A stretch of DNA of 64,000 bases, taken from positions 123,256,001 through 123,320,000 of the forward strand of contig OZ024743.1 of assembly GCA_964016885.1 (NCBI GenBank). The letters run 5' to 3'. The position numbers and the translations under genes are program-made. The DNA comes from Eledone cirrhosa. Its lineage: Eukaryota. Shown here one piece after another: positions 2,484-59,711 of the stretch. The notes beneath the pieces are model-generated. The model ran no database searches. It was not told the DNA's origin and saw only the letters and a list, made by a program, of their open reading frames with translations. Each line of letters starts with the position of its first letter. Position 1 is the stretch's first letter.

Positions 2484-3113
2484 TTATTGTTCATTTAGCT
2501 TGGGTTGGAATTTATCAATAAAATTCTTTTCTTTAATTTTTCTTTTGATTTCACTTGGGCTGTGTAGTTTGTAGAATGGTAATTTGGTACTAGCCATCTC
2601 TTTTGTAAATTGGAGAGATGGGTGTAGGTTATTCAGGAGGATATTGAACTCATCCAGAATATCTAGAGATTCTGCCCAGATGATGAAACAGTCGTCAAGG
2701 TATCTCTTCCAAGACTGTTCAATGTACTTTCTAAATTCAGTGCTATATTTTTCCTCTATTTCTTGGTAGAGTTGTTGTTCTAAGTATCCCATTACAGAGT
2801 TCGCGTAAACGGGAGAAAACTTCGTTCCCATCGCAGTGCCTCTAATTTGGATGTAATTCTTTCCATTGAAGGAGAAAGTGTTGTTTTCCAGAATAAGTCT
2901 GACTGCGTCTAATATAAATGGCGCTGTGAATCTGGTGGGAATCACTTCTCTATGTTTTTCCACCAAGTATTTAACCGCCTTTATTCCTAAACCATGTGTA
3001 ATGTTGGTATAAAGGCTTACCACATCAAAACTAAGTAGAAGTGAATTCGTTTCCGTGGTTTTGGGAAGATGGACAGGAAGTCGATATCATCCCGGATGAA
3101 ACTGGGTATGTGC
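2484..3113 (-). pseudogene. PLE reverse transcriptase core (inverted arm), fused by deletion to the endonuclease C-terminus
   Basis: Motifs SFDVVSLYTNI, QIRGTAMGT and WKRYLDDCFI. After TKLPF it jumps to YKLHSPSEIKR via a CCATTC microhomology. Confidence 0.9.
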
Positions 3114-16366: not shown

Positions 16367-17337
16367 GAGGGGGGGGGGGTGCAAAAGGTTACCGAATAAG
16401 CAACAAAGCAAAGCGATATTGTACAATGAAAATATATATTATTTTAACGCTTGATATAATATGAAAAGTCTCTTAACATTTCGGACGTAAATTAGTCCTT
16501 CGTCGGGAGATTCAGCAGGAAAATCGTCAGGAGATAGAATGATAAATAAAAGAAGAAATAGAGAAGATAGACAAGAGCGAGAAGATGGAGAAACGTTTTT
16601 TTTTTTTTTTTTTTTTTTTTTTGGTGGTGGGGAAAAGAAATCACGTGTGTTCAGTCAACCATTTTGAGGAAAATCTACACACGGTAATACATCCATCGTA
16701 GGCTACGGTTGGTTTCTCACTCCAACAGGAAACTTACATAATGTGTATGTGAATGTCTCTGGTGTCTCTCGGGCTTCGATTCATTACTTATTAATCATTC
16801 ATTTATATATACACACTTTGCCTTTTATCCTTACGGGGTCGATAAAATAAAGTACCAGTAATGTACTGGGTAATTACTGGCCTTGTGCCTAAAGTAGAAA
16901 CAATTTATTTATATATACACACACATGCAAGGACATAGAAATATGTATACACACGCAGATATGTATGTTTACCTCTCTGTGTGTATGTATGTGTACGTAT
17001 GTTTGTGTGTGTGTGCATTATGACTATGTCTGAGTTTGTATACACCGTAATTATCTCTCAACTGTTTATTTATTTGTTCAAGCATCTCGTTCTGTCAACA
17101 AATCTATATTCTTTCTCTAATCAAGGTGTAACGAGACAAGAAACTTGTCTGCCCATAAAACCTAAAGTTTACTCCAGGAAAACATTAGTTTACAGTGATG
17201 CTAAAATTTTATATTTACTAAAAATGTTATATTCTAAAATTCAAATATATCGCCTCACTACGAAAAAAGGCGTGTAGCACAATACACATATGTATACATG
17301 CGTGTGTGTTTGTCCACGTATGTATGTATGTATTCTC

Positions 17338-19550
17338 AGATGAAGGATAAGTGGTGGAGTGAGAAGGCTGATGAGATACAAGCTGCATCAGATTCCAATA
17401 ACACAAAGCTGTTGTACAGTCTCTTGCGTGAAGTGTATGAACCGTCTTCTACTCTGGTGACACCGCTTCGCAGCAAGGATGGCAAGGAACTTCTTCGTGA
17501 CTCACAAGGAATTCTACGAAGGTGGCGAGAGCACTTTGATGAACTTTTGAATCAGTCGTCTGTCGTCAATGAAGATTTCCTAAATATCATTCCTGAAAAA
17601 CCTCTGAAAGTAGCTCTCGCAGAACCACCGACGCTTGTAGAGGTTGCAGTAGCTATCTCGAAGCTGAACAGTGGAAGGTCTCCAGGTATGGATGGCATAC
17701 ATGCAGAGCTCCTACAATATCGCGGTGAGAGACTTCTACAACATCTTCACTCTTTGTTTGGTAGGATATGGGCTAGTGAATCCGTACCTGAGGACTGGAG
17801 AGATGCAGTAATGGTGGTCTTGTACAAAGGAAAGGGTAACAAGTATGATTATGGAAACTACAAAGGTATATAATTGCTTTCTGTCGTAGGAACATTTTTT
17901 ATGTAGGGTGCTTCTGTACCGTCTGCTGACACACATTGCAGATTCTGTTCTTCCTGAAAGTCAATCTGGTTTTCGTGCTGACGCGGCACTACTGATATGA
18001 TCTTCTCAGCTAGACAGCTCCAGGAGAAGTGCATGGAACAAGGTTTGGATCTGTATCAGGTTTTTGTCGGTGTGACAAAAGCTTTCGATACTGTAAACAG
18101 AAATGCATTGTGGAAGGTTCTTCAGAAACTTGGTTGCGCTGATAAGTTCCTTGCTTTAGTTAGGTCTTTCCATGACGACATGAAGGCTTGGGTTAATGTC
18201 AGAGGTAACATGTCGGAGCCTATCTCAGTAAAAAATGGAGTGAAACAGGGGGATATTCCAGCACCGACCCTGTTTGCTATATACTTTGCAATGGTTTTCT
18301 ATATTGCATTCAGGAATTGCGAGCATGGTGTTTACATCCAATATCGAACCGCTGGCAACATATTTAACATCAGGTGCTTTGCTGCAAAAACAAAAGTATT
18401 TACATCAATCATAAGAGACCTCTTGTATGCAGATGATTGCGATCTTGTAGCTCAAACAGAGAGTGATATGCAGCACATTTTGAATGCATTTTCTGATGCT
18501 TGCACTGCTCTAGGATTGACTGTCAGTCTCAAGAAAACCGTTGTCATGTACCAACCTGCCCCTGGTAAGCAATACGGTGAGCCAAATATCTGTGTATGGT
18601 AAACGACTTTGAGTGGTTGATCAGTTTGTCTACCTGGGCAGCACTGTCAATCGATACAGCAACCTTGATAATGAAATTCCACTCAGGATTAGGAAAGCAA
18701 GTGATGCTTTCGGAAAGCTAGGAAGGCGACTTTGGGGTCGGCGAGACATATGCAAGAAGACAATGGTAAAGGTGTACAAGGCATGTATGTTCTCTTCTCT
18801 TCTTTATGCCTACGAGACATGGACCACATTAAAACATTGGAGCGTTTCCATCAGATGTGTCTCAGACGAATCCATGGCGTTCACTGGAGGGACCACATCA
18901 GTGATGTCGAGATTTTGGAAAGCTCTCCGTGTGACAGTATAGAAGCTCTTGTGCTTAAGCAACGACTCCGTTGGAGTGGTCACCTTGCCAGGATGAAGGA
19001 TTCTAGAATACTAAAACAACTCTTTTATGGAGAGTTAGTTAAAGGAAAATGACCTCCACATAAACCCAAAAAGAGGTATACGAATTCGTTGAAAGCCTCT
19101 TTGAAAGTCGCTAACATCTCTGCTGATACATGGGAAAATGTTGCTGCTGATCGTAATAAATGGAGACTGTATATGAGGGAAAAGTTGCCTTTGAGGCATT
19201 ACTGTTGCATTTCCAGACAGCGAAGGTCCTCCTATGGCACTGACATGCAGCGTCTGTGCGAGACTCTGCTTAAGCAAAGCTGGACTCGAAAGCCATCTTC
19301 GCAGTCATAAAGTAAGACTAGTGGTTGACTACCAGGCTGGTGAGGCGGCTGTTGAAGATGCTACTCATCATGCCTGCCAAGCATGTGGTAGAGAATGTAA
19401 ATCAGCAGGAGGGCTCAAACGACATGCAAAAGTACACGAACTCCAACCACAGCCGCCTATTCCCAGTGAATGTTTTGGTTGCTAACTCTGTGCAAGACAT
19501 TTTAGATCATTGGCTGGGCTAAAAAGCCACATTCGATCGCAGCACTGTTA
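17338..19550 (+). mobile_element. 5'-truncated, frameshifted RTE (BovB-like) LINE with three C-terminal C2H2 zinc fingers
   Basis: SPGMDGIHAE, YKGKG, KAFDTV, GVKQGD, LLYADD, YLGS and RLRWSGHLARM. Fingers CSVC..HLRSH, CQAC..HAKVH and C*LC..HIRSQH. Confidence 0.93.
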
Positions 19551-28319: not shown

Positions 28320-28421
28320 AGTCCCTCATCAGTGATTTACCAAACGATCATGGGTATTTCATCGCATTAAAAATCATATACCTCACGTTGGAGCGATAAT
28401 AACTAAAATAAGTTATCGGGA
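28320..28421 (-). ncRNA. Candidate rearranged (non-circularly permuted) hammerhead, copy 1, intact core
   Basis: GTCCC-hairpin-ATCGC-t-CCAACG..GGTA-TA-TGATTT-ttaat-GCGAT-GAAA-TACC..CGTTTGG-t-AAATCA-CTGATGA-GGGAC. It lies in the TA-flanked repeat 28263-28710. Confidence 0.65.
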
Positions 28422-28718
28422 CAATAGAAACGCGTAAAGCGAGTGAGACAAGTAAACAACACAGGGGGAAGGTAACCGAAGTTGGAAATAAACACAAGCA
28501 ACATAGTTATTCTTTCAGCATAAGCTGTGTGAATATATGAGCGAGTCAGCAACAGACCTTTCGCTAGTGAATCCGGTGTTAGAAAGAATGAAAACCGTTT
28601 TCCCAGCGAACGGGAGGAAGAAAGAAGGGGAGAAACAGGGACTGAGTGAGTGGGAGTGCGAGGAAGAGGTCAGTAGAGAGAAAGAGTTAACTGACATGGC
28701 AGAGGGGACGAATATATA

Positions 28719-28945: not shown

Positions 28946-29406
28946 CTGATGAGACCCCCCCCCCCCGTTCTTGGTCTCTTCTTACTCCCATTCCAATTTT
29001 AAGCTTAACTTACTAGCAACAACACAGCCACCGTATTCTCCATAGATTTTATCATGTTTCGCTGTGACCGGTCATCTCTCTCCCTCTAACTACCTACTTC
29101 GTTACTATCTACTCTTCCCCCTCTTTCTTCTTCTCCCTTTCTCCCTCTCACTTTTACTCACTCTCTCTCTATTTGCCACCTCATTGTTTTCCTTCGCCTG
29201 ACCTTCTAGCAGTCTTTTTCTCATTCACACTCGCTTGGGTCAGTCGCCTTTTTCGTTCGATCACACGCTCTCGAACTTATGTTCTGTTACCGCTGTGATC
29301 TTGGGTTCTCTCTCTCTAGTTGCTGCACATTCTTCGGTATGTTGTTGTTTTTTCGCTGTTATCTCTTTTCCCCTTTTCCCTTCTGTTTTCCTTCTCTCCC
29401 TCCTCC

Positions 29407-29510
29407 GTTTTCTCAATAACTTACCCCGTTATTGAACGCCCTGGAGGTAAATATATTGTCTTTAAAGCGTTGAAATATCCGAGAACCCCCAGGAGACTAC
29501 TGACGAGGAC
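29407..29510 (+). ncRNA. Candidate rearranged hammerhead, copy 2
   Basis: CAATAAC/GTTATTG hairpin-AACGC-CCTGGAGGT-aa-ATA-TA-TTGTCT-ttaaa-GCGTT-GAAA-TAT..ACCCCCAGG-AGACTA-CTGACGA-GGAC. It lies in the TA-flanked repeat 28946-29557. Confidence 0.6.
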
Positions 29511-38677: not shown

Positions 38678-38970
38678 AAAGAATAGAGGTGTAACACACA
38701 AGTTATTATATATTGGTAAACGGAATAGAAAATGCTGATAAATTGTTCACAGTTGAAAAATGGTTTAATTAGGAATAAAAGAGTATTAGTGATTGTATGG
38801 GTTAGTATTCAGTTGTGGTTTTAAGTTTTTAAGTTTTTACCGGTTGCGCAAAAACTTAAAACCACAACTGAATACTAACCCATACAATCACTAATACTCT
38901 TTTATTCCTAATTAAACCATTTTTCAACTGTGAACAATTTGTCAGCATTTTCTATTCCGTTTACCAATAT
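38674..38970. mobile_element. Fold-back insertion in (TA)n with ~120-bp arms and a ~35-nt tail
   Basis: 38708-38830 pairs with 38851-38972. The centre ACCGGTTGCGC may be a GAAA-CCGG-TT hammerhead remnant. Confidence 0.8.
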
Positions 38971-41419: not shown

Positions 41420-42705
41420 AAACTTCCTAATGATATTTCTAATATTAAGTCTTCTAATAATAAGTTTGTATTTTCCGATAAGACTAAAAACTTATATGAA
41501 ATAAATAACGATTTATATAACCAACCTTTAACAGATAGTATCACTACCAAATATCAAAAAGCCAAAAATAACACCCTTAATAATATAAATAATGAAGCTA
41601 AAGACATTGCAAGTAAATTAAAAATAGACAATAGAACTGACAGCCTAGCTAAGCGTAAAGCCTATATTACACTGAAAGACCACAAAATAGATTTCAATAA
41701 CAGACCTAGTTGTAGACTCATTAACCCTGCTAAATCAGAAATTGGTCTTGCCAGTAAAAAAATATAAACTAATATAATATTAAAAATAAGAAGTAAAGCA
41801 GAACTTTATCAATGGCTTAATACATCTTCAGTAGTTTCATGGTTTAATATCATACCTGAAAAGAATAGATCTAGATTCACTCAATTCGATATAATAGACT
41901 TCTACCCCTCTATCACTCAATTCTTATTAGCCAAAGCATTAGAATTCGCTAAAAATTACACTAACATATCCGATTTACAAGAGGAAGTAACTTTACATGC
42001 CCTTAAAACTCTACTTTTTACCAAAAATGAATCTTGGGTTAAAAAAATCTAACCCAGAAAACCCATTTGATGTCTCTATGGGTTTCTTTGACAGAGCCGA
42101 TGTGTGTGATTTGGTCGGTTTGTTCCTTTTACACACAATAAGGGAAAAAACTCCCAGGTCACACCATCGGGTTATATCGAGACGACGGACTAGCAGTCTC
42201 TCATACCACGAATGGCCATGACCTCGACACTTTTCGTAAAGATTTAATTAAAATTTTCTTTCACCTAAACCTTAACATTACTATAGATACTAATCTTACC
42301 AACATAAATTTCCTTGACATAATCTTGACTTACTCACTGCTTCCTTTAAACCTTACTATAAACCTAAAGAGAATCTCAAATATATAAATAAACAGTCATG
42401 CCACCCTCCGATAGTATTTAAAAACCTCATCCCTAATATTAGCCGTAGGATATCTACCCTCTTCTCTTCTGAAGAAATATTTAATAAAGCAGCCCCTAAC
42501 TATAATAAGGCCCTCAAAAATAGCGGATTCACTGAACAAATAAAATATATATCTAACCCCACTAACACTTCTACACATAATAATAGGAAAAGAAAAATAA
42601 TCTGGTTCACACCACCCTTCTCTTTAACACTCAAAACGAATGTAGATAGAAAGTTCCTTGAATTGGTAGATAAACATTTCCCCTATCGCCATAAATTTAG
42701 CAACA
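41420..42705 (+). pseudogene. Decayed PLE reverse transcriptase (YRDD type)
   Basis: FSDKTKNLY, AYITLKDHK, CRLINPAKSEIG, FDIIDFYPSI, FDVSMG, GLYRDDGLA, NFLDI and IIWFTPPFS, with stops and frameshifts. Confidence 0.9.
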
Positions 42706-42736
42706 TAAATATATCACCATAAATATAGCGATGAAA

Positions 42737-43436
42737 TTAATTGGGAATTATTTGCATAGATCGTTAAAATATTCGTCGAAATTCATGCGATCGGAGTTAT
42801 TTCTATCAGCTCATTATTTTTTTAGATCATTACTTAGGAGGCAGTGAAGGGTTCAATTATGTCAAGAGTGAAGGAAACTTCGTCAAACTGACTTACCGAG
42901 GGTGTACTAGATACATATAATCTTCAGTGATTTTTCCAGGATACTAAAGTTATGTTTTATTATAACCTATAATCAACTGTTCAATTCTTCGTTTCACTTA
43001 GCCATTCACTCAGTGGTATTTAAACTAAAACCATCTGATATAGAGAAGATAATAAATCGAAATAAAAACGTTTTGATTTCGTTGTTTTGTAAAAACACAA
43101 TGGAAGTAAGATTCGAAAAAATCCGTCCCAGAGCTCTTGATACAAGAATATTACAGAAATCAATATAATCATATAATACAATAACTTTGACAGATACAAA
43201 AACAATCAGAATATAAAAATATTAATTATATTACTTATAACTAGAAACAGTATATAAAAAATAAATCGAAATAAAGACATCTTGAATTCGCTGTTCTGAA
43301 AAAGCTCAATGGACGTAAGTTTCGGAGCAACCGGTTCTAGCGCTTATTTTCATCCATATGGGATCGATAAAATAAAGTACCAGTAATGCTCTGGGATATT
43401 TGCTAGCCTTGTGTCAAAAGCGTCAAAAGTGTGAAC

Positions 43437-43498
<62 letters not shown>

Positions 43499-43784
43499 TT
43501 TCATTTCTGAATTTGTTTAGCAAGATTCTTTATCTGAAAACGTGTGTTGAAACCGATATTGTTATACTTTGTGAGGGTCATGTTGCCAATAAGAAACACA
43601 CGCACCAGTTACTTTCATTTCAATTTATTATAATAAATTTATAAATTTATTATAATAAATTGAAGTGAAAGCAACTGGTGCGTGTGTTTCTTATTGGCAA
43701 CATGACCCTCCCAAAGTATAACAATATCGGTTTCAACACACGTTTTCAGATAAAGAATCTTGCTAAACAAATTCAGAAATGAAA

Positions 43785-43850
<66 letters not shown>

Positions 43851-44551
43851 GTTCACACTTTTGACGCTTTTGACACAAGGCTAGCAAATATCCAGAGCAT
43901 TACTGGTACTTTATTTTATCGACCCCATATGGATGAAAATAAGCGCTAGAACCGGTTGCTCCGAAACTTATGTCCATTGAGCTTTTTCAGAACAGCGAAT
44001 TCAAGATGTTTTTATTTCGATTTATTTTTTATATACTGTTTCTAGTTATAAGTAATATAATTAATATTTTTATATTCTGATTGTTTTTGTATCTGTCAAA
44101 GTTATTGTATTATATGATTATATTGATTTCTGTAATATTCTTGTATAAGGGAGCTCTGGGACAGATTTTTTTAGAATCTAACTTCCATTGTGTTTTTACA
44201 GAACAACGAAATCAAAACGTTTTTATTTCGATTTATTATCTATCTATATCAGATGGTTTTAGTTTAAATACCACTGAGTGAATGGCTAAGTGAAACGAAG
44301 AATTGAACAGTTGATTATAGGTTAAAATAAAACATAACTTTAGTATCCTGGAAAAATCACTGAAGATTATATGTATCTAGTACACCCTCGGTAAGTCAGT
44401 TTGACGAAGTTTCCTTCACTCTTGACATAATTGAACCCTTCACTGCCTCCTAAGTAATGATATAAAAAAATAATGAGCTGATAGAAATAACTCCGATCGC
44501 ATGAATTTCGACGAATATTTTAACGATCTATGCAAATATTTCCCAATTAAA
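42737..44551. repeat. 1.8-kb spacerless palindrome with ~905-bp arms centred at 43641/43642
   Basis: Each arm has ~700 bp of sequence including a SINE fragment, then (TA)n, then ~145 nt matching the PLE terminus at 51384-51550. The arms differ by scattered substitutions. Confidence 0.92.
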
Positions 44552-51384: not shown

Positions 51385-52356
51385 TTCGTTTCTGAATTTG
51401 TTTAGCAAGATTCTTTATCTGAAATCGTGTGTTGAAACCGATATTGTTATACTTTGGGAGGGTCATGTTGCCAATAAGAAACACACGCACCAGTTGCTTT
51501 CACTTCAATTTAATTTATTATATATTTATAAATTTACAAATTTATAAATTTCTGGTTGGTTGGTTGGTTCCACAACCAGATAGTTGTTTATATATATATA
51601 GTCATAGTTCTTTCGTCACACACTCTGTGACCTCTTCAGTGACTGGGGATTTCTTTCTTCGTTTCTGTGCCTTTCCTTTCTTCTATCCTACGCCATTTTG
51701 TTTGTGTGTGGGTTGCGTGCTCAGTTTGCGCATGCGCCACATCCGGGTGTCTGTGTGTGTTTGTGTTCATTTTTCTATTTTTCTATTTATATTTTTCTAT
51801 TTGTTTGTTTATTTATTTATTTATTTATTTATTGTTGGTTGGTTGTTTGTTCTATGTGTGTGTGTGTTTTCATTTTGTCTTGTGTGTGTTTTCATTTTGT
51901 GTGTGTTTTCAATTGTAAGTTGTTTGTTCTATGTGTGTGTGTGTTTTCATTTTGTCCTTAATTGTAAGTTGTGATGTTGCTGTTCCACTCATATTTTCTA
52001 TTTAATTTTGGTTTTAATTCTTTTATGCTTACTGCCTCTGTAATTTGCCTAAACATTGCGTCTTTCTTGTGTGTGGATTCTATTTTTATTTCTATGCTCT
52101 CTAATTTACCCCTGTGTTCTATCTTAGCATGTTGGTAGAGCACAGATGATTCTTTATTATCTTGGAGGTCTCGCCAGTGTTCATTTATTCGTTCCCCTAT
52201 ACTACGAGCTGTCTCACCTATGTACACTATATTTTTGTTTCTAGATTGTCCTTCAGTACATCTTATGCTATATACTACATTTCTAGTTTTACAGTTAATA
52301 TGGGGGCTTATTTTACAGGTTATACATTTCTTATCTGCTACACCGTCTTTTTCGTT
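51384..52356 (-). mobile_element. 5'-truncated PLE: GIY-YIG endonuclease (frame open 52356-51958) and 3' region
   Basis: CITC..NCKTRNVVYSIRC..VYIGETARSIGERINEH..HAKIEH..RQITEAV..KPKLN. It ends at (TA)n. Confidence 0.9.
51600..51644 (-). ncRNA. Minimal type I hammerhead ribozyme
   Basis: AGTCA-CTGAAGA-g GTCACA gagtg TGTGAC-GAAA-gaac-TA-TGACT. Confidence 0.75.
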
Positions 52357-52769
52357 CTATGTATCTTTACCCTTTCTAGCAGTCTCTCTCTCTGTTAGCC
52401 TCTTCCTCACTCTTCACTCACTCATTCTCTGTCACTACCTCTCCTCCTCCTCTTTCTTCCCGTTTGACCTGTGAGTAATTCTTTTCTCTCACATTCTCGG
52501 CCAAGCTGGTCGGAATTTTTTCTCTCTCGTCTACGATTTCACAGAACTTATGTTTACCGAATTCGCAAACCAGACCCCTTCTTCCTCCCGTTAGACCTGT
52601 GCGAAATTCCTTCCTTGCTCACATTTCAACCAGGTTTGATGGTCTTTATTCTCTCGTTCACGATTTCACCGAACTTAAATTCATAGAAATCTGGGACTTG
52701 TCTCTTTCTTCCTCACTTTCTGTTGCTTCACCATTTTGTTTGTTTACCCTCGGGTCCCCTTTATTTACG

Positions 52770-52873
52770 TGTCCCAACGACTTTTTTTAGCCGTTGCTCG
52801 CACCAACCGGAGGTATATGGTCTTTAAAGCGATGAAATGCCTATGATGGTTGGAAGATCACAGATGAAGGACA
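52770..52873 (+). ncRNA. Candidate rearranged hammerhead, copy 3 (U4A core mutation)
   Basis: TGTCC-CAACGACT/AGCCGTTG-c-TCGC-a-CCAACC-gg-AGGTA-TA-TGGTCT-ttaaa-GCGAt-GAAA-TGCCT-atgat-GGTTGG-a-AGATCA-CAGATGA-a-GGACA. Confidence 0.6.
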
Positions 52874-52879
52874 AACTTT

Positions 52880-52941
<62 letters not shown>

Positions 52942-59395: not shown

Positions 59396-59711
59396 GCAGA
59401 AGGGATATTCAATTGTTGGTAGTTCAACAAATATAAATGTTTATAACTGATTCAGAGCCCTTGACAGGTTTTCTGGAGTATAATATACAATGATATTAAA
59501 TAAATGGAAACTATATTTATAAAACCATATTTATTCTATTATATATATTTCAAGGGTACCAAAATTTTGGTACCCTATCATCAGATAAAATACGAAGTGT
59601 GTTTTATATCCAGGGAAAAATGAATCGTTAAGGTATATTCTCCTTTGTTATGTCAAAATGTATAAGTACCTTACTTACTGTGGTTACCGCCGATTAAACC
59701 CGGGATAAACT

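What the first reader, a model, noticed from the sequence alone, without database searches (positions are those of the whole stretch)
52770..52873. Stem II of the rearranged hammerhead appears to be replaced by a multi-way junction supplied by an upstream splint
Seen: the strand after CUGAUGA (GGAC) does not pair with the strand before GAAA (GCGAT), apart from one A-U or G-U pair. An upstream segment is complementary to both: GTCC(C) pairs with (G)GGAC in copies 1 and 3 (weak in copy 2), a conserved hairpin follows (GATAACT/AGTTATT, CAATAAC/GTTATTG, CAACGACT/AGCCGTTG), and then ATCGC/GCGAT, AACGC/GCGTT or TCGC/GCGA, which includes a compensatory change. Inference: a four-way junction stands in for stem II, and the distal ends of helices I, II and III meet in a second junction. 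I do not recognise this cage-like fold from standard HHR types.
Basis: partly seen in the sequence, partly recalled or inferred. Interest (0 to 1): 0.8.

Follow-up and report, generated by a model that had tools for sequence, protein, structure and literature searches.

The report
Splinted hammerhead ribozyme, likely paired
About 21,000 copies of a jumping repeat in this animal genome carry a scrambled hammerhead RNA motif in which one core helix is rebuilt by an extra upstream strand as a four-way junction; it is predicted to cut itself, likely only when two copies lock together, and this particular copy is likely dead.

Summary
In 184 genomic copies the two strands that should form hammerhead stem II share at most one base pair in 152 and three pairs in 1. 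An upstream splint pairs with both, and those helices change in step across subfamilies: well supported for the GAAA-side helix, weaker for the other. The block order is type SGC, published from metatranscriptomes, but there stem II is direct. The same splint junction can be read by eye at the 3' ends of published Naiad retrotransposons from four animal lineages. I also find a kink-turn sequence between stem III and the distal helix in most copies. The window copy has a core mutation (U4A) and stands alone. Cleavage and expression are untested. The scan has reported this family before, from other pieces of the same genome, including the splint, the kink-turn and the Naiad link.

The parts
52334..52890 (+). 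5'-truncated single unit of a non-coding tandem repeat (full unit about 615 nt), ending at a (TA)n tract
   Evidence: extent of similarity to other copies; sister loci hold 2-3 head-to-tail units 605-618 nt apart
52771..52774 (+). splint 5' arm (a); pairs with the strand after the catalytic CUGAnGA
   Evidence: formed in the minimum-energy fold
52775..52796 (+). splint hairpin (b), fourth arm of the junction
   Evidence: about 6 compensatory events on internal branches against 0.7 expected
52797..52801 (+). splint 3' arm (c0 + c); pairs with the strand before GAAA and acts as the surrogate stem II
   Evidence: U-A, A-U, G-C and C-G/U-A swaps between subfamilies
52803..52808 (+). 5' strand (d) of the distal helix, analogue of the I-II interaction helix of SGC ribozymes
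   Evidence: 11 co-changes against 2 expected
52809..52811 (+). non-bulged strand of the predicted kink-turn (3n, 2n, 1n)
   Evidence: consensus from PMC5061560
52812..52817 (+). stem III strand with U16.1 and H17; predicted cut between 52817 and 52818
   Evidence: by analogy to the hammerhead core; triplets AUA 126, AUC 40, GUU 12 of 184
52818..52824 (+). stem I strand 3' of the cut (f)
   Evidence: 5.5 co-changes against 0.35 expected
52825..52833 (+). 4-nt linker, strand g (pairs with the splint) and position 11.1
52834..52841 (+). GAAA core and stem III partner strand
52842..52847 (+). 3-nt bulge plus G1b, A2b, 3b of the predicted kink-turn
   Evidence: G1b in 177 and A2b in 183 of 185 copies; also kept in lists from patterns that did not ask for it
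52848..52860 (+). 3' strand of the distal helix (i) followed by the stem I partner strand (j)
52861..52867 (+). CUGAnGA core, mutated at U4 in this copy
52868..52872 (+). position 10.1 and strand k, which pairs with the splint 5' arm instead of with g
28321..28422 (-). second copy, another subfamily, core intact
29410..29510 (+). third copy, older subfamily (2n = U type hinge), several decay changes; the core of an upstream unit lies at 28946

Best explanation
This is one copy of a high-copy non-coding repeat whose hammerhead motif has its blocks in the scrambled S-G-C order and whose stem II is rebuilt by an upstream splint as a four-way junction; it is predicted to self-cleave, likely as a strand-swapped pair of copies rather than as a one-molecule cage. 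Shown by sequence comparison: the six helices, the missing direct stem II, the tandem arrangement. Inferred: each copy first folds into a nested skeleton (splint 5' arm helix, splint hairpin, distal helix, hinge, stem III). That leaves a 20-nt loop at one end (cut site, stem I strand, linker, strand g, GAA) and an open junction at the other (splint 3' arm and the stem I partner with CUGAnGA). The loop of one copy would dock into the junction of a neighbouring copy, forming stem I and the surrogate stem II between molecules; the surrogate helix would stack on the G12-A9 pair and stem III, the other two arms on each other. Cutting would then happen in multi-unit transcripts and spare the single-unit circle, which a Naiad-type Penelope-like reverse transcriptase would copy back into (TA)n tracts. 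The window copy, single and U4A, is likely inactive as a catalyst.
For: Splint helices covary on a tree: GAAA-side helix 2.5 co-changes on internal branches against 0.14 for rate-matched columns (0 of 10,000 draws), CUGAnGA-side helix 2.5 against 0.65 (P about 0.05), direct stem II 1.0 against 0.5; searches agree. The nested skeleton is the minimum-energy fold of copy 3, of an intact sister copy and of a distant subfamily, and in part of copy 1. The same four-arm junction, with a canonical G-C pair next to G12 supplied by the splint, is readable in Naiad_Obim and Naiad_Ovul, Naiad_Plae, Naiad_EuTe and three coral-type entries. Stems II and III stack (PMC10085705; PMC11300833), so the distal helix would have to span the whole stack: axis gap 26 A against at most 31 A of link for this family even with a 50-degree kink, but 43-44 A against 31-38 A for EuTe and the coral entries, which have no kink-turn (EuTe has a 1-nt bulge). 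One subfamily here keeps the helix lengths but replaces the G-A pairs by Watson-Crick pairs (12 of 184). Copies come in head-to-tail units: 25 of the first 100 pattern matches lie in 11 same-strand arrays (counted by eye); most same-strand spacings are 445-753 nt. Dimer-dependent cutting is established for other Penelope-linked hammerheads (PMC4209133; PMC7229834), and loop docking between protomers for the VS ribozyme (PMC5573960).
Against: No cleavage or expression data. Pairing patterns cannot tell pairing within a molecule from pairing between identical molecules. In a strict all-pairs test only one hairpin pair and one stem I pair reached E of 0.05 or less; the junction pairs did not (E 30 and 103 for the best two). 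The CUGAnGA-side helix is only 3 pairs in part of one subfamily (17 of 184 U-C at its outer pair) and in the octopus Naiads, and its register was set by hand for some subfamilies. Stem III covariation is not significant by itself (P 0.11). Published SGC ribozymes cleave during transcription as single constructs. The Naiad folds were read by eye and I did not survey all Naiad entries. No Naiad reading frame was found next to any copy examined.
Confidence: 0.55

Rival explanations
1. One-molecule cage: the same helices all form in cis, and the kink-turn folds the distal helix back so that it meets the far ends of stem I and the surrogate stem II.
For: Kink-turn consensus at exactly the place where a sharp bend is needed (154 of 184 copies; also in the octopus Naiads); fixed helix lengths across subfamilies; 57 of 125 standard-type copies, this one included, obey the rule for folding in metal ions alone (PMC4382518 abstract); budget marginally allows it; some published SGC ribozymes also join these ends with no linker.
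Against: Not possible on the same budget for Naiad_EuTe and the coral entries; lost kink-turn in one subfamily and in Naiad_Plae without loss of the other helices; stem I must also reach the distal helix over 0-1 nt.
Confidence: 0.25
2. Switch: the nested skeleton is an off state; the distal helix must open (or a host or element protein such as the 15.5-kDa kink-turn binder must remodel it) before the core can form in cis.
For: The skeleton is the predicted ground state and leaves stem I unformed; an opened distal helix would give enough slack; 55 of 125 standard-type copies have a U-U pair at 3b-3n, which does not meet the ion-only folding rule.
Against: The analogous helix is required for cleavage in SGC-3 (PMC10085705); the distal helix is 9-10 Watson-Crick pairs in some lineages.
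Confidence: 0.1
3. Not catalytic: the fold is a conserved handle for the retroelement protein at the RNA 3' end, derived from a hammerhead.
For: No RNA evidence; no specific pile-up of 5' truncations at the predicted cut; it sits at the 3' end of Naiads, where the protein would bind.
Against: U16.1 in 180 of 185, H17 never G in 185, C3-G8 kept, although U16.1 and H17 were not in the patterns that collected these copies; the same core in distant Naiads.
Confidence: 0.1

Closest known systems
Type-SGC hammerhead ribozymes (HRIMA-1 and SGC variants; Eckert et al. 2023, PMC10085705; parts 2-5 of 8 and first part of the Discussion read, supplement searched)
   Same: Block order cut site - GAAA - CUGAnGA; short linker from stem I to stem II; an extra helix joining the far sides of stems I and II.
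   Different: There stem II forms directly and the extra helix's partner lies downstream; here both are supplied by an upstream splint, stem II starts at a four-way junction, and both strands of the extra helix run on into stem III through a bulge or kink-turn. The paper found SGC ribozymes in metatranscriptomes and none in genomes of known organisms.
Pseudoknot-containing hammerhead, PDB 8YDC (Zhan et al. 2024, PMC11300833; passages and section 7 read)
   Same: Stem II cut down to one G10.1-C11.1 pair, with a surrogate helix made with another strand and stacked on helix III.
   Different: The surrogate is a loop-loop pseudoknot with a triple helix, in a differently connected RNA; here it is a splint strand in a four-way junction, and the closing pair can come from either strand.
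Dimeric type I hammerheads of Penelope-like elements and animal non-LTR retrozymes (PMC4209133, PMC7229834; passages read)
   Same: Tandem non-coding units, Penelope-like setting, proposed cutting in multimers and not in single circles.
   Different: Those are type I motifs that dimerise through a short palindromic stem III, in units of about 170-400 nt; here stem III is stable, the order is permuted, units are about 445-750 nt, and the swap would be of stems I and II.
Naiad Penelope-like elements (Craig et al. 2021, PMC8557442; passages, supplement searches and parts 12, 19, 24 read)
   Same: (TA)n targets, tandem and inverted insertions; the same ribozyme layout can be read at the 3' end of several consensus sequences.
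   Different: The paper reports no canonical hammerhead in Naiads (only 'core' or 'half core' marks); the repeats here have no reading frame.
Neurospora VS ribozyme (review PMC5573960; passages read)
   Same: Works-like analogue of my best model: a stem-loop substrate of one protomer docks into the catalytic domain of another, suited to concatemeric transcripts.
   Different: Unrelated catalytic core and fold.

Membership tests
Hammerhead ribozyme | CUGAnGA and GAAA core, C3-G8, UH cut site | tested here: met
   Family: 168 of 184 copies have all seven checked positions intact (cores were partly selected by the search patterns, U16.1 and H17 were not). The window copy itself fails at U4.
Hammerhead ribozyme | Stems I and III flank the core | tested here: met
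   96-97% paired on 26 representatives; stem I covariation strong, stem III weak by itself
Hammerhead ribozyme | Stem II formed by the strand after CUGAnGA and the strand before GAAA | tested here: not met
   0-1 pair in 152 of 184, 3 pairs in 1 of 184; 29% paired. A surrogate helix is present.
Hammerhead ribozyme | Site-specific self-cleavage | not testable with these tools
   No assay; no RNA reads were laid
Type-SGC hammerhead | Block order S-G-C | tested here: met
Type-SGC hammerhead | Block C uninterrupted (CUGAnGA followed directly by its stem II strand) | tested here: not met
   The strand after A9 is taken by the splint 5' arm; the stem II partner comes from upstream
Type-SGC hammerhead | Extra helix joining the far sides of stems I and II; short I-II linker | tested here: met
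   Distal helix covaries, partner strand upstream; linker 3-5 nt
Kink-turn | 3-nt bulge followed by G-A and A-G pairs next to a canonical helix | tested here: met
   Standard in 115 of 184, 2n = U variant in 39, Watson-Crick (no kink-turn) in 12, other 18; definition from PMC5061560
Kink-turn | Kinked 3D fold, L7Ae/15.5k binding | not testable with these tools
   needs FRET, gel shift or structure
Animal non-LTR retrozyme | Short non-coding tandem units with one ribozyme each | tested here: met
Animal non-LTR retrozyme | Type I hammerhead, units of about 170-400 nt | tested here: not met
   permuted order; most spacings 445-753 nt against PMC7229834
Animal non-LTR retrozyme | Expressed as linear and circular RNA | not testable with these tools
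   no RNA reads could be laid
Naiad Penelope-like element | (TA)n targets, tandem and inverted insertions | tested here: met
Naiad Penelope-like element | Reading frame with N-terminal GIY-YIG and C-terminal RT | tested here: not met
   58 of 269 long frames scanned: RT, endonuclease and finger domains in flanks, no GIY-YIG; none by motif or by eye upstream of divergent copies. The units are non-autonomous.
Pseudoknot-containing hammerhead (8YDC type) | Loop-loop pseudoknot and triple helix replacing stem II | tested here: not met
   The splint hairpin loop is a variable U-rich run and the surrogate helix comes from the strand after the hairpin

The most novel reading that the evidence does not exclude
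Naiad retrotransposons and their non-coding parasites use an obligate strand-swapped hammerhead: a hairpin loop carrying the cut site and GAAA from one copy docks into a splint-built four-way junction carrying CUGAnGA from another copy. The ribozyme thereby counts copies, cutting multi-unit transcripts and sparing single circles, and the layout is conserved from corals to octopods.
Probability: 0.45. Interest if true: 0.9.

Novelty: new variant of a known kind. Interest (0 to 1): 0.75.

Why it matters
It would supply the ribozyme that Naiad retrotransposons were reported to lack, extend non-circularly permuted hammerheads from anonymous metatranscriptomes to tens of thousands of animal genomic loci, and show that stem II can be assembled by strand exchange at a four-way junction. 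If the pair model holds, it is a second, independent way for hammerheads to make cutting depend on copy number, and it offers an answer to the geometric puzzle that the SGC paper left open for its zero-linker examples. Standard scans miss it: no hammerhead family was among the 150 best of 216 Rfam matches listed for the window. A 105-nt RNA makes every step directly testable.

Tried and rejected
Direct stem II in any register: best run over offsets 0-2 was 3 pairs in 20 of 184 copies and fewer in the rest. Classical type I, II or III folding across tandem units: rotating S-G-C gives only the non-classical orders (definitions). Strict all-pairs covariation with a tree null was underpowered, few deep splits. 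Genomic footprint of cleavage: copies whose similarity stops in the five positions at the predicted cut number 302, against 127 in a six-position window upstream and 223 in a five-position window downstream that detects only about half of (TA)n flanks; the cut site itself reads like the (TA)n target, so this is inconclusive, as was a local breakpoint list. Sequencing runs: no RNA holder listed; contigs of three runs were laid and cannot show ends or circles. Autonomous partner: none found. Outside animals: 0 of 109 viral-contig loci and 0 of 3 metagenome loci fit an SGC core descriptor that recovered 20 of 30 genomic loci (a first run had too narrow a range and no positive control). Literature: searches for 'type-SGC' (1 paper), Naiad + hammerhead + ribozyme (3 listed), hammerhead + four-way junction + stem II + k-turn + permuted (2 listings, not read, neither about this by title and abstract start), and searches showed no description of this layout; the SGC supplement has no 'kink' or 'junction'; figures, subscription journals and bioRxiv supplements were not visible to me. 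Rows dropped before the counts: of 276 parsed copies, 44 lacked a homologous 5' half, 15 were duplicates, 32 failed the filter (18 no hairpin found, many of them from the long-hairpin subfamily whose 5' end was clipped; 13 gaps; 1 AT run) and 1 more was removed, leaving 184. The sample comes from top hits and pattern lists and is not random.

Full report
Observation. The region 52771-52872 holds a hammerhead-like motif whose blocks run cut site, GAAA, CUGAnGA. Two more copies lie at 28321-28422 (-) and 29410-29510 (+). Two corrections: this copy has A instead of U at core position 4 (52862), while the 29 other top hits fetched have the normal core; and the base pair next to G12 is made with the base after A9 in 94 of 184 copies, with the first base of the splint in 49, with either in 13 and with neither in 28, so the junction can shift by one pair. 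No hammerhead family was among the Rfam matches listed for the window.

The element. The motif sits at the 3' end of a non-coding unit that ends in (TA)n; the window copy spans about 52334-52890 and is a single 5'-truncated unit. A degenerate pattern finds 21,035 matches in the 3.0-Gb genome against 3 for the reversed control. Units occur head to tail (25 of the first 100 matches in 11 arrays, counted by eye; most spacings 445-753 nt) and as inverted pairs. Contigs of a run labelled as a second organism also cover the motif with 4 differing letters in 119. The host is an animal; the repeat landscape and the likeness of some rare copies (loci L280, L307) to the octopus Naiad motif suggest an octopod, which is my inference.

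Covariation. I collected copies from top hits and pattern lists, and kept 184 full-length distinct copies of 276 parsed (drops listed under Tried and rejected). A direct stem II is absent: at most one pair in 152 copies, three pairs in one. The splint helices hold: the pair nearest the core on the GAAA side is canonical in 179 of 184 (U-A 128, A-U 38, G-C 12), the next in 173 (C-G 152, U-A 11, U-G 10); the outer pair on the CUGAnGA side in 159 (G-C 103, A-U 23, U-A 19, C-G 11; U-C mismatch 17). Counting co-changes on internal branches against rate-matched columns: GAAA-side helix 2.5 against 0.14, hairpin 6.3 against 0.67, distal helix 11 against 2.0, stem I 5.5 against 0.35 (none of 10,000 draws reached these); CUGAnGA-side helix 2.5 against 0.65 (P 0.046); stem III 1.6 against 0.25 (P 0.11); direct stem II 1.0 against 0.5 (P 0.43). 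A stricter all-pairs test made only two pairs significant, neither in the splint-core helices. On a structure-blind alignment of 26 representatives that I picked, the model is 96.5% paired with 22 of 30 pairs changed on both sides, a direct stem II 29%. The long-hairpin subfamily shows the cleanest form: five pairs right after A9, an 11-pair hairpin, and five pairs ending in a canonical G-C next to G12, with no spare bases.

Between stem III and the distal helix lies a 3-nt bulge followed by G-A and A-G oppositions, the kink-turn consensus (PMC5061560, passages): standard in 115 of 184 copies, with U at 2n (as in Kt-23) in 39, replaced by Watson-Crick pairs in 12. The window copy has U-G at 3b-3n, which meets the published rule for folding in metal ions alone (PMC4382518, abstract).

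Independent lineages. Earlier notes of this scan report the same family from other pieces of this genome and point to Naiad elements. I checked this in the supplement of Craig et al. 2021 (PMC8557442), whose text says Naiads lack canonical hammerheads and target (TA)n. Read by eye, the 3' ends of Naiad_Obim and Naiad_Ovul, Naiad_Plae, Naiad_EuTe and three near-identical entries around the Naiad_Aacu and Naiad_Anas headers (coral is my reading of the codes) carry the same layout with unrelated letters: 3-6 pairs after A9, a 5-9-pair hairpin, a 6-pair surrogate stem II closed by G-C, a distal helix, stem III and stem I. The hinge differs: kink-turn in the octopus entries, a plain 3-nt bulge in Plae, about 6 nt in the coral entries, 1 nt in EuTe; stem III is 5, 6, 12-13 and 10 pairs. 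Other entries seen have the ordinary order or did not fold this way, and I did not survey all entries.

How it most likely works. Four helices are nested and form the predicted ground state. Stem I and the surrogate stem II join a loop at one end of the stem III-distal helix rod to a junction at the other end. Since stem II or its surrogate stacks on stem III (PMC10085705; PMC11300833), a single molecule must bend the rod back over the whole stack. A head-to-tail pair removes the strain: the loop of one copy supplies the cut site and GAAA, the junction of the other supplies CUGAnGA and the splint. That is inference; covariation cannot separate it from the cage. It fits the tandem arrangement, the known dimer dependence of other Penelope-linked hammerheads and the VS precedent. 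I give the pair 0.55, the kink-turn-closed cage 0.25, a switch 0.1 and a non-catalytic handle 0.1. The junction itself I put at about 0.9.

Comparison and novelty. The S-G-C order is published and shown to cleave (PMC10085705), from metatranscriptomes only, with a direct stem II. A one-pair stem II with a surrogate helix is published for the pseudoknot hammerhead. My searches found no description of a splint-built four-way junction, a kink-turn or a Naiad ribozyme of this kind; the 2026 retrozyme preprint has no hit for octopus, cephalopod or kink (passages). It works like a hammerhead but fails the direct-stem-II feature of both classical and SGC types, so I file it as a new variant. Cleavage, expression and the mobilising enzyme remain untested; the copy at the given coordinates is probably a dead member of a live design.

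Noticed in passing
window 51600-51644 (-) and 59532-59592 (-): Ordinary-order (type I, minimal) hammerhead motifs of other repeat families, found by a simple descriptor; similar cores by eye at 654, 5843, 21402, 21663, 27946, 53946, 55738.
   Followed up: partly
window 28946-29000 (+): Core and 3' part of a second unit about 555 nt upstream of copy 2, cut off by a (TA)n tract; copy 2 is the downstream member of a partial tandem.
   Followed up: no
L196, L198, L212, L216 near position 1500: A subfamily with a 6-nt insertion opposite the 3-nt bulge, giving a 6x3 internal loop at the hinge.
   Followed up: no
L280/L321 and L307: Rare, decayed copies with a 6-pair surrogate stem II and short linker that resemble the octopus Naiad motif more than the common subfamilies; no reading frame seen upstream.
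   Followed up: partly
L154 near 850, L108 near 1510-1570, L211 near 1510-1560: Fold-back (inverted) junctions centred within a few bases of the predicted cut site; too few to test.
   Followed up: partly
window 17238-18599 (+) and 2487-3086 (-): Broken reverse transcriptase frames of other retroelements (Pfam RVT_1 at 17982-18599 and 2487-3086).
   Followed up: no
window 41800-44400: A long inverted repeat pair (cores at 42927 - and 44360 +) around an AT-rich frame that looks like a Penelope-like remnant; no Pfam hit for the frame scanned.
   Followed up: no
window 38784-38896 and 43574-43709: Near-perfect long hairpins that score against microRNA models below their thresholds; likely fold-back repeat junctions.
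   Followed up: no
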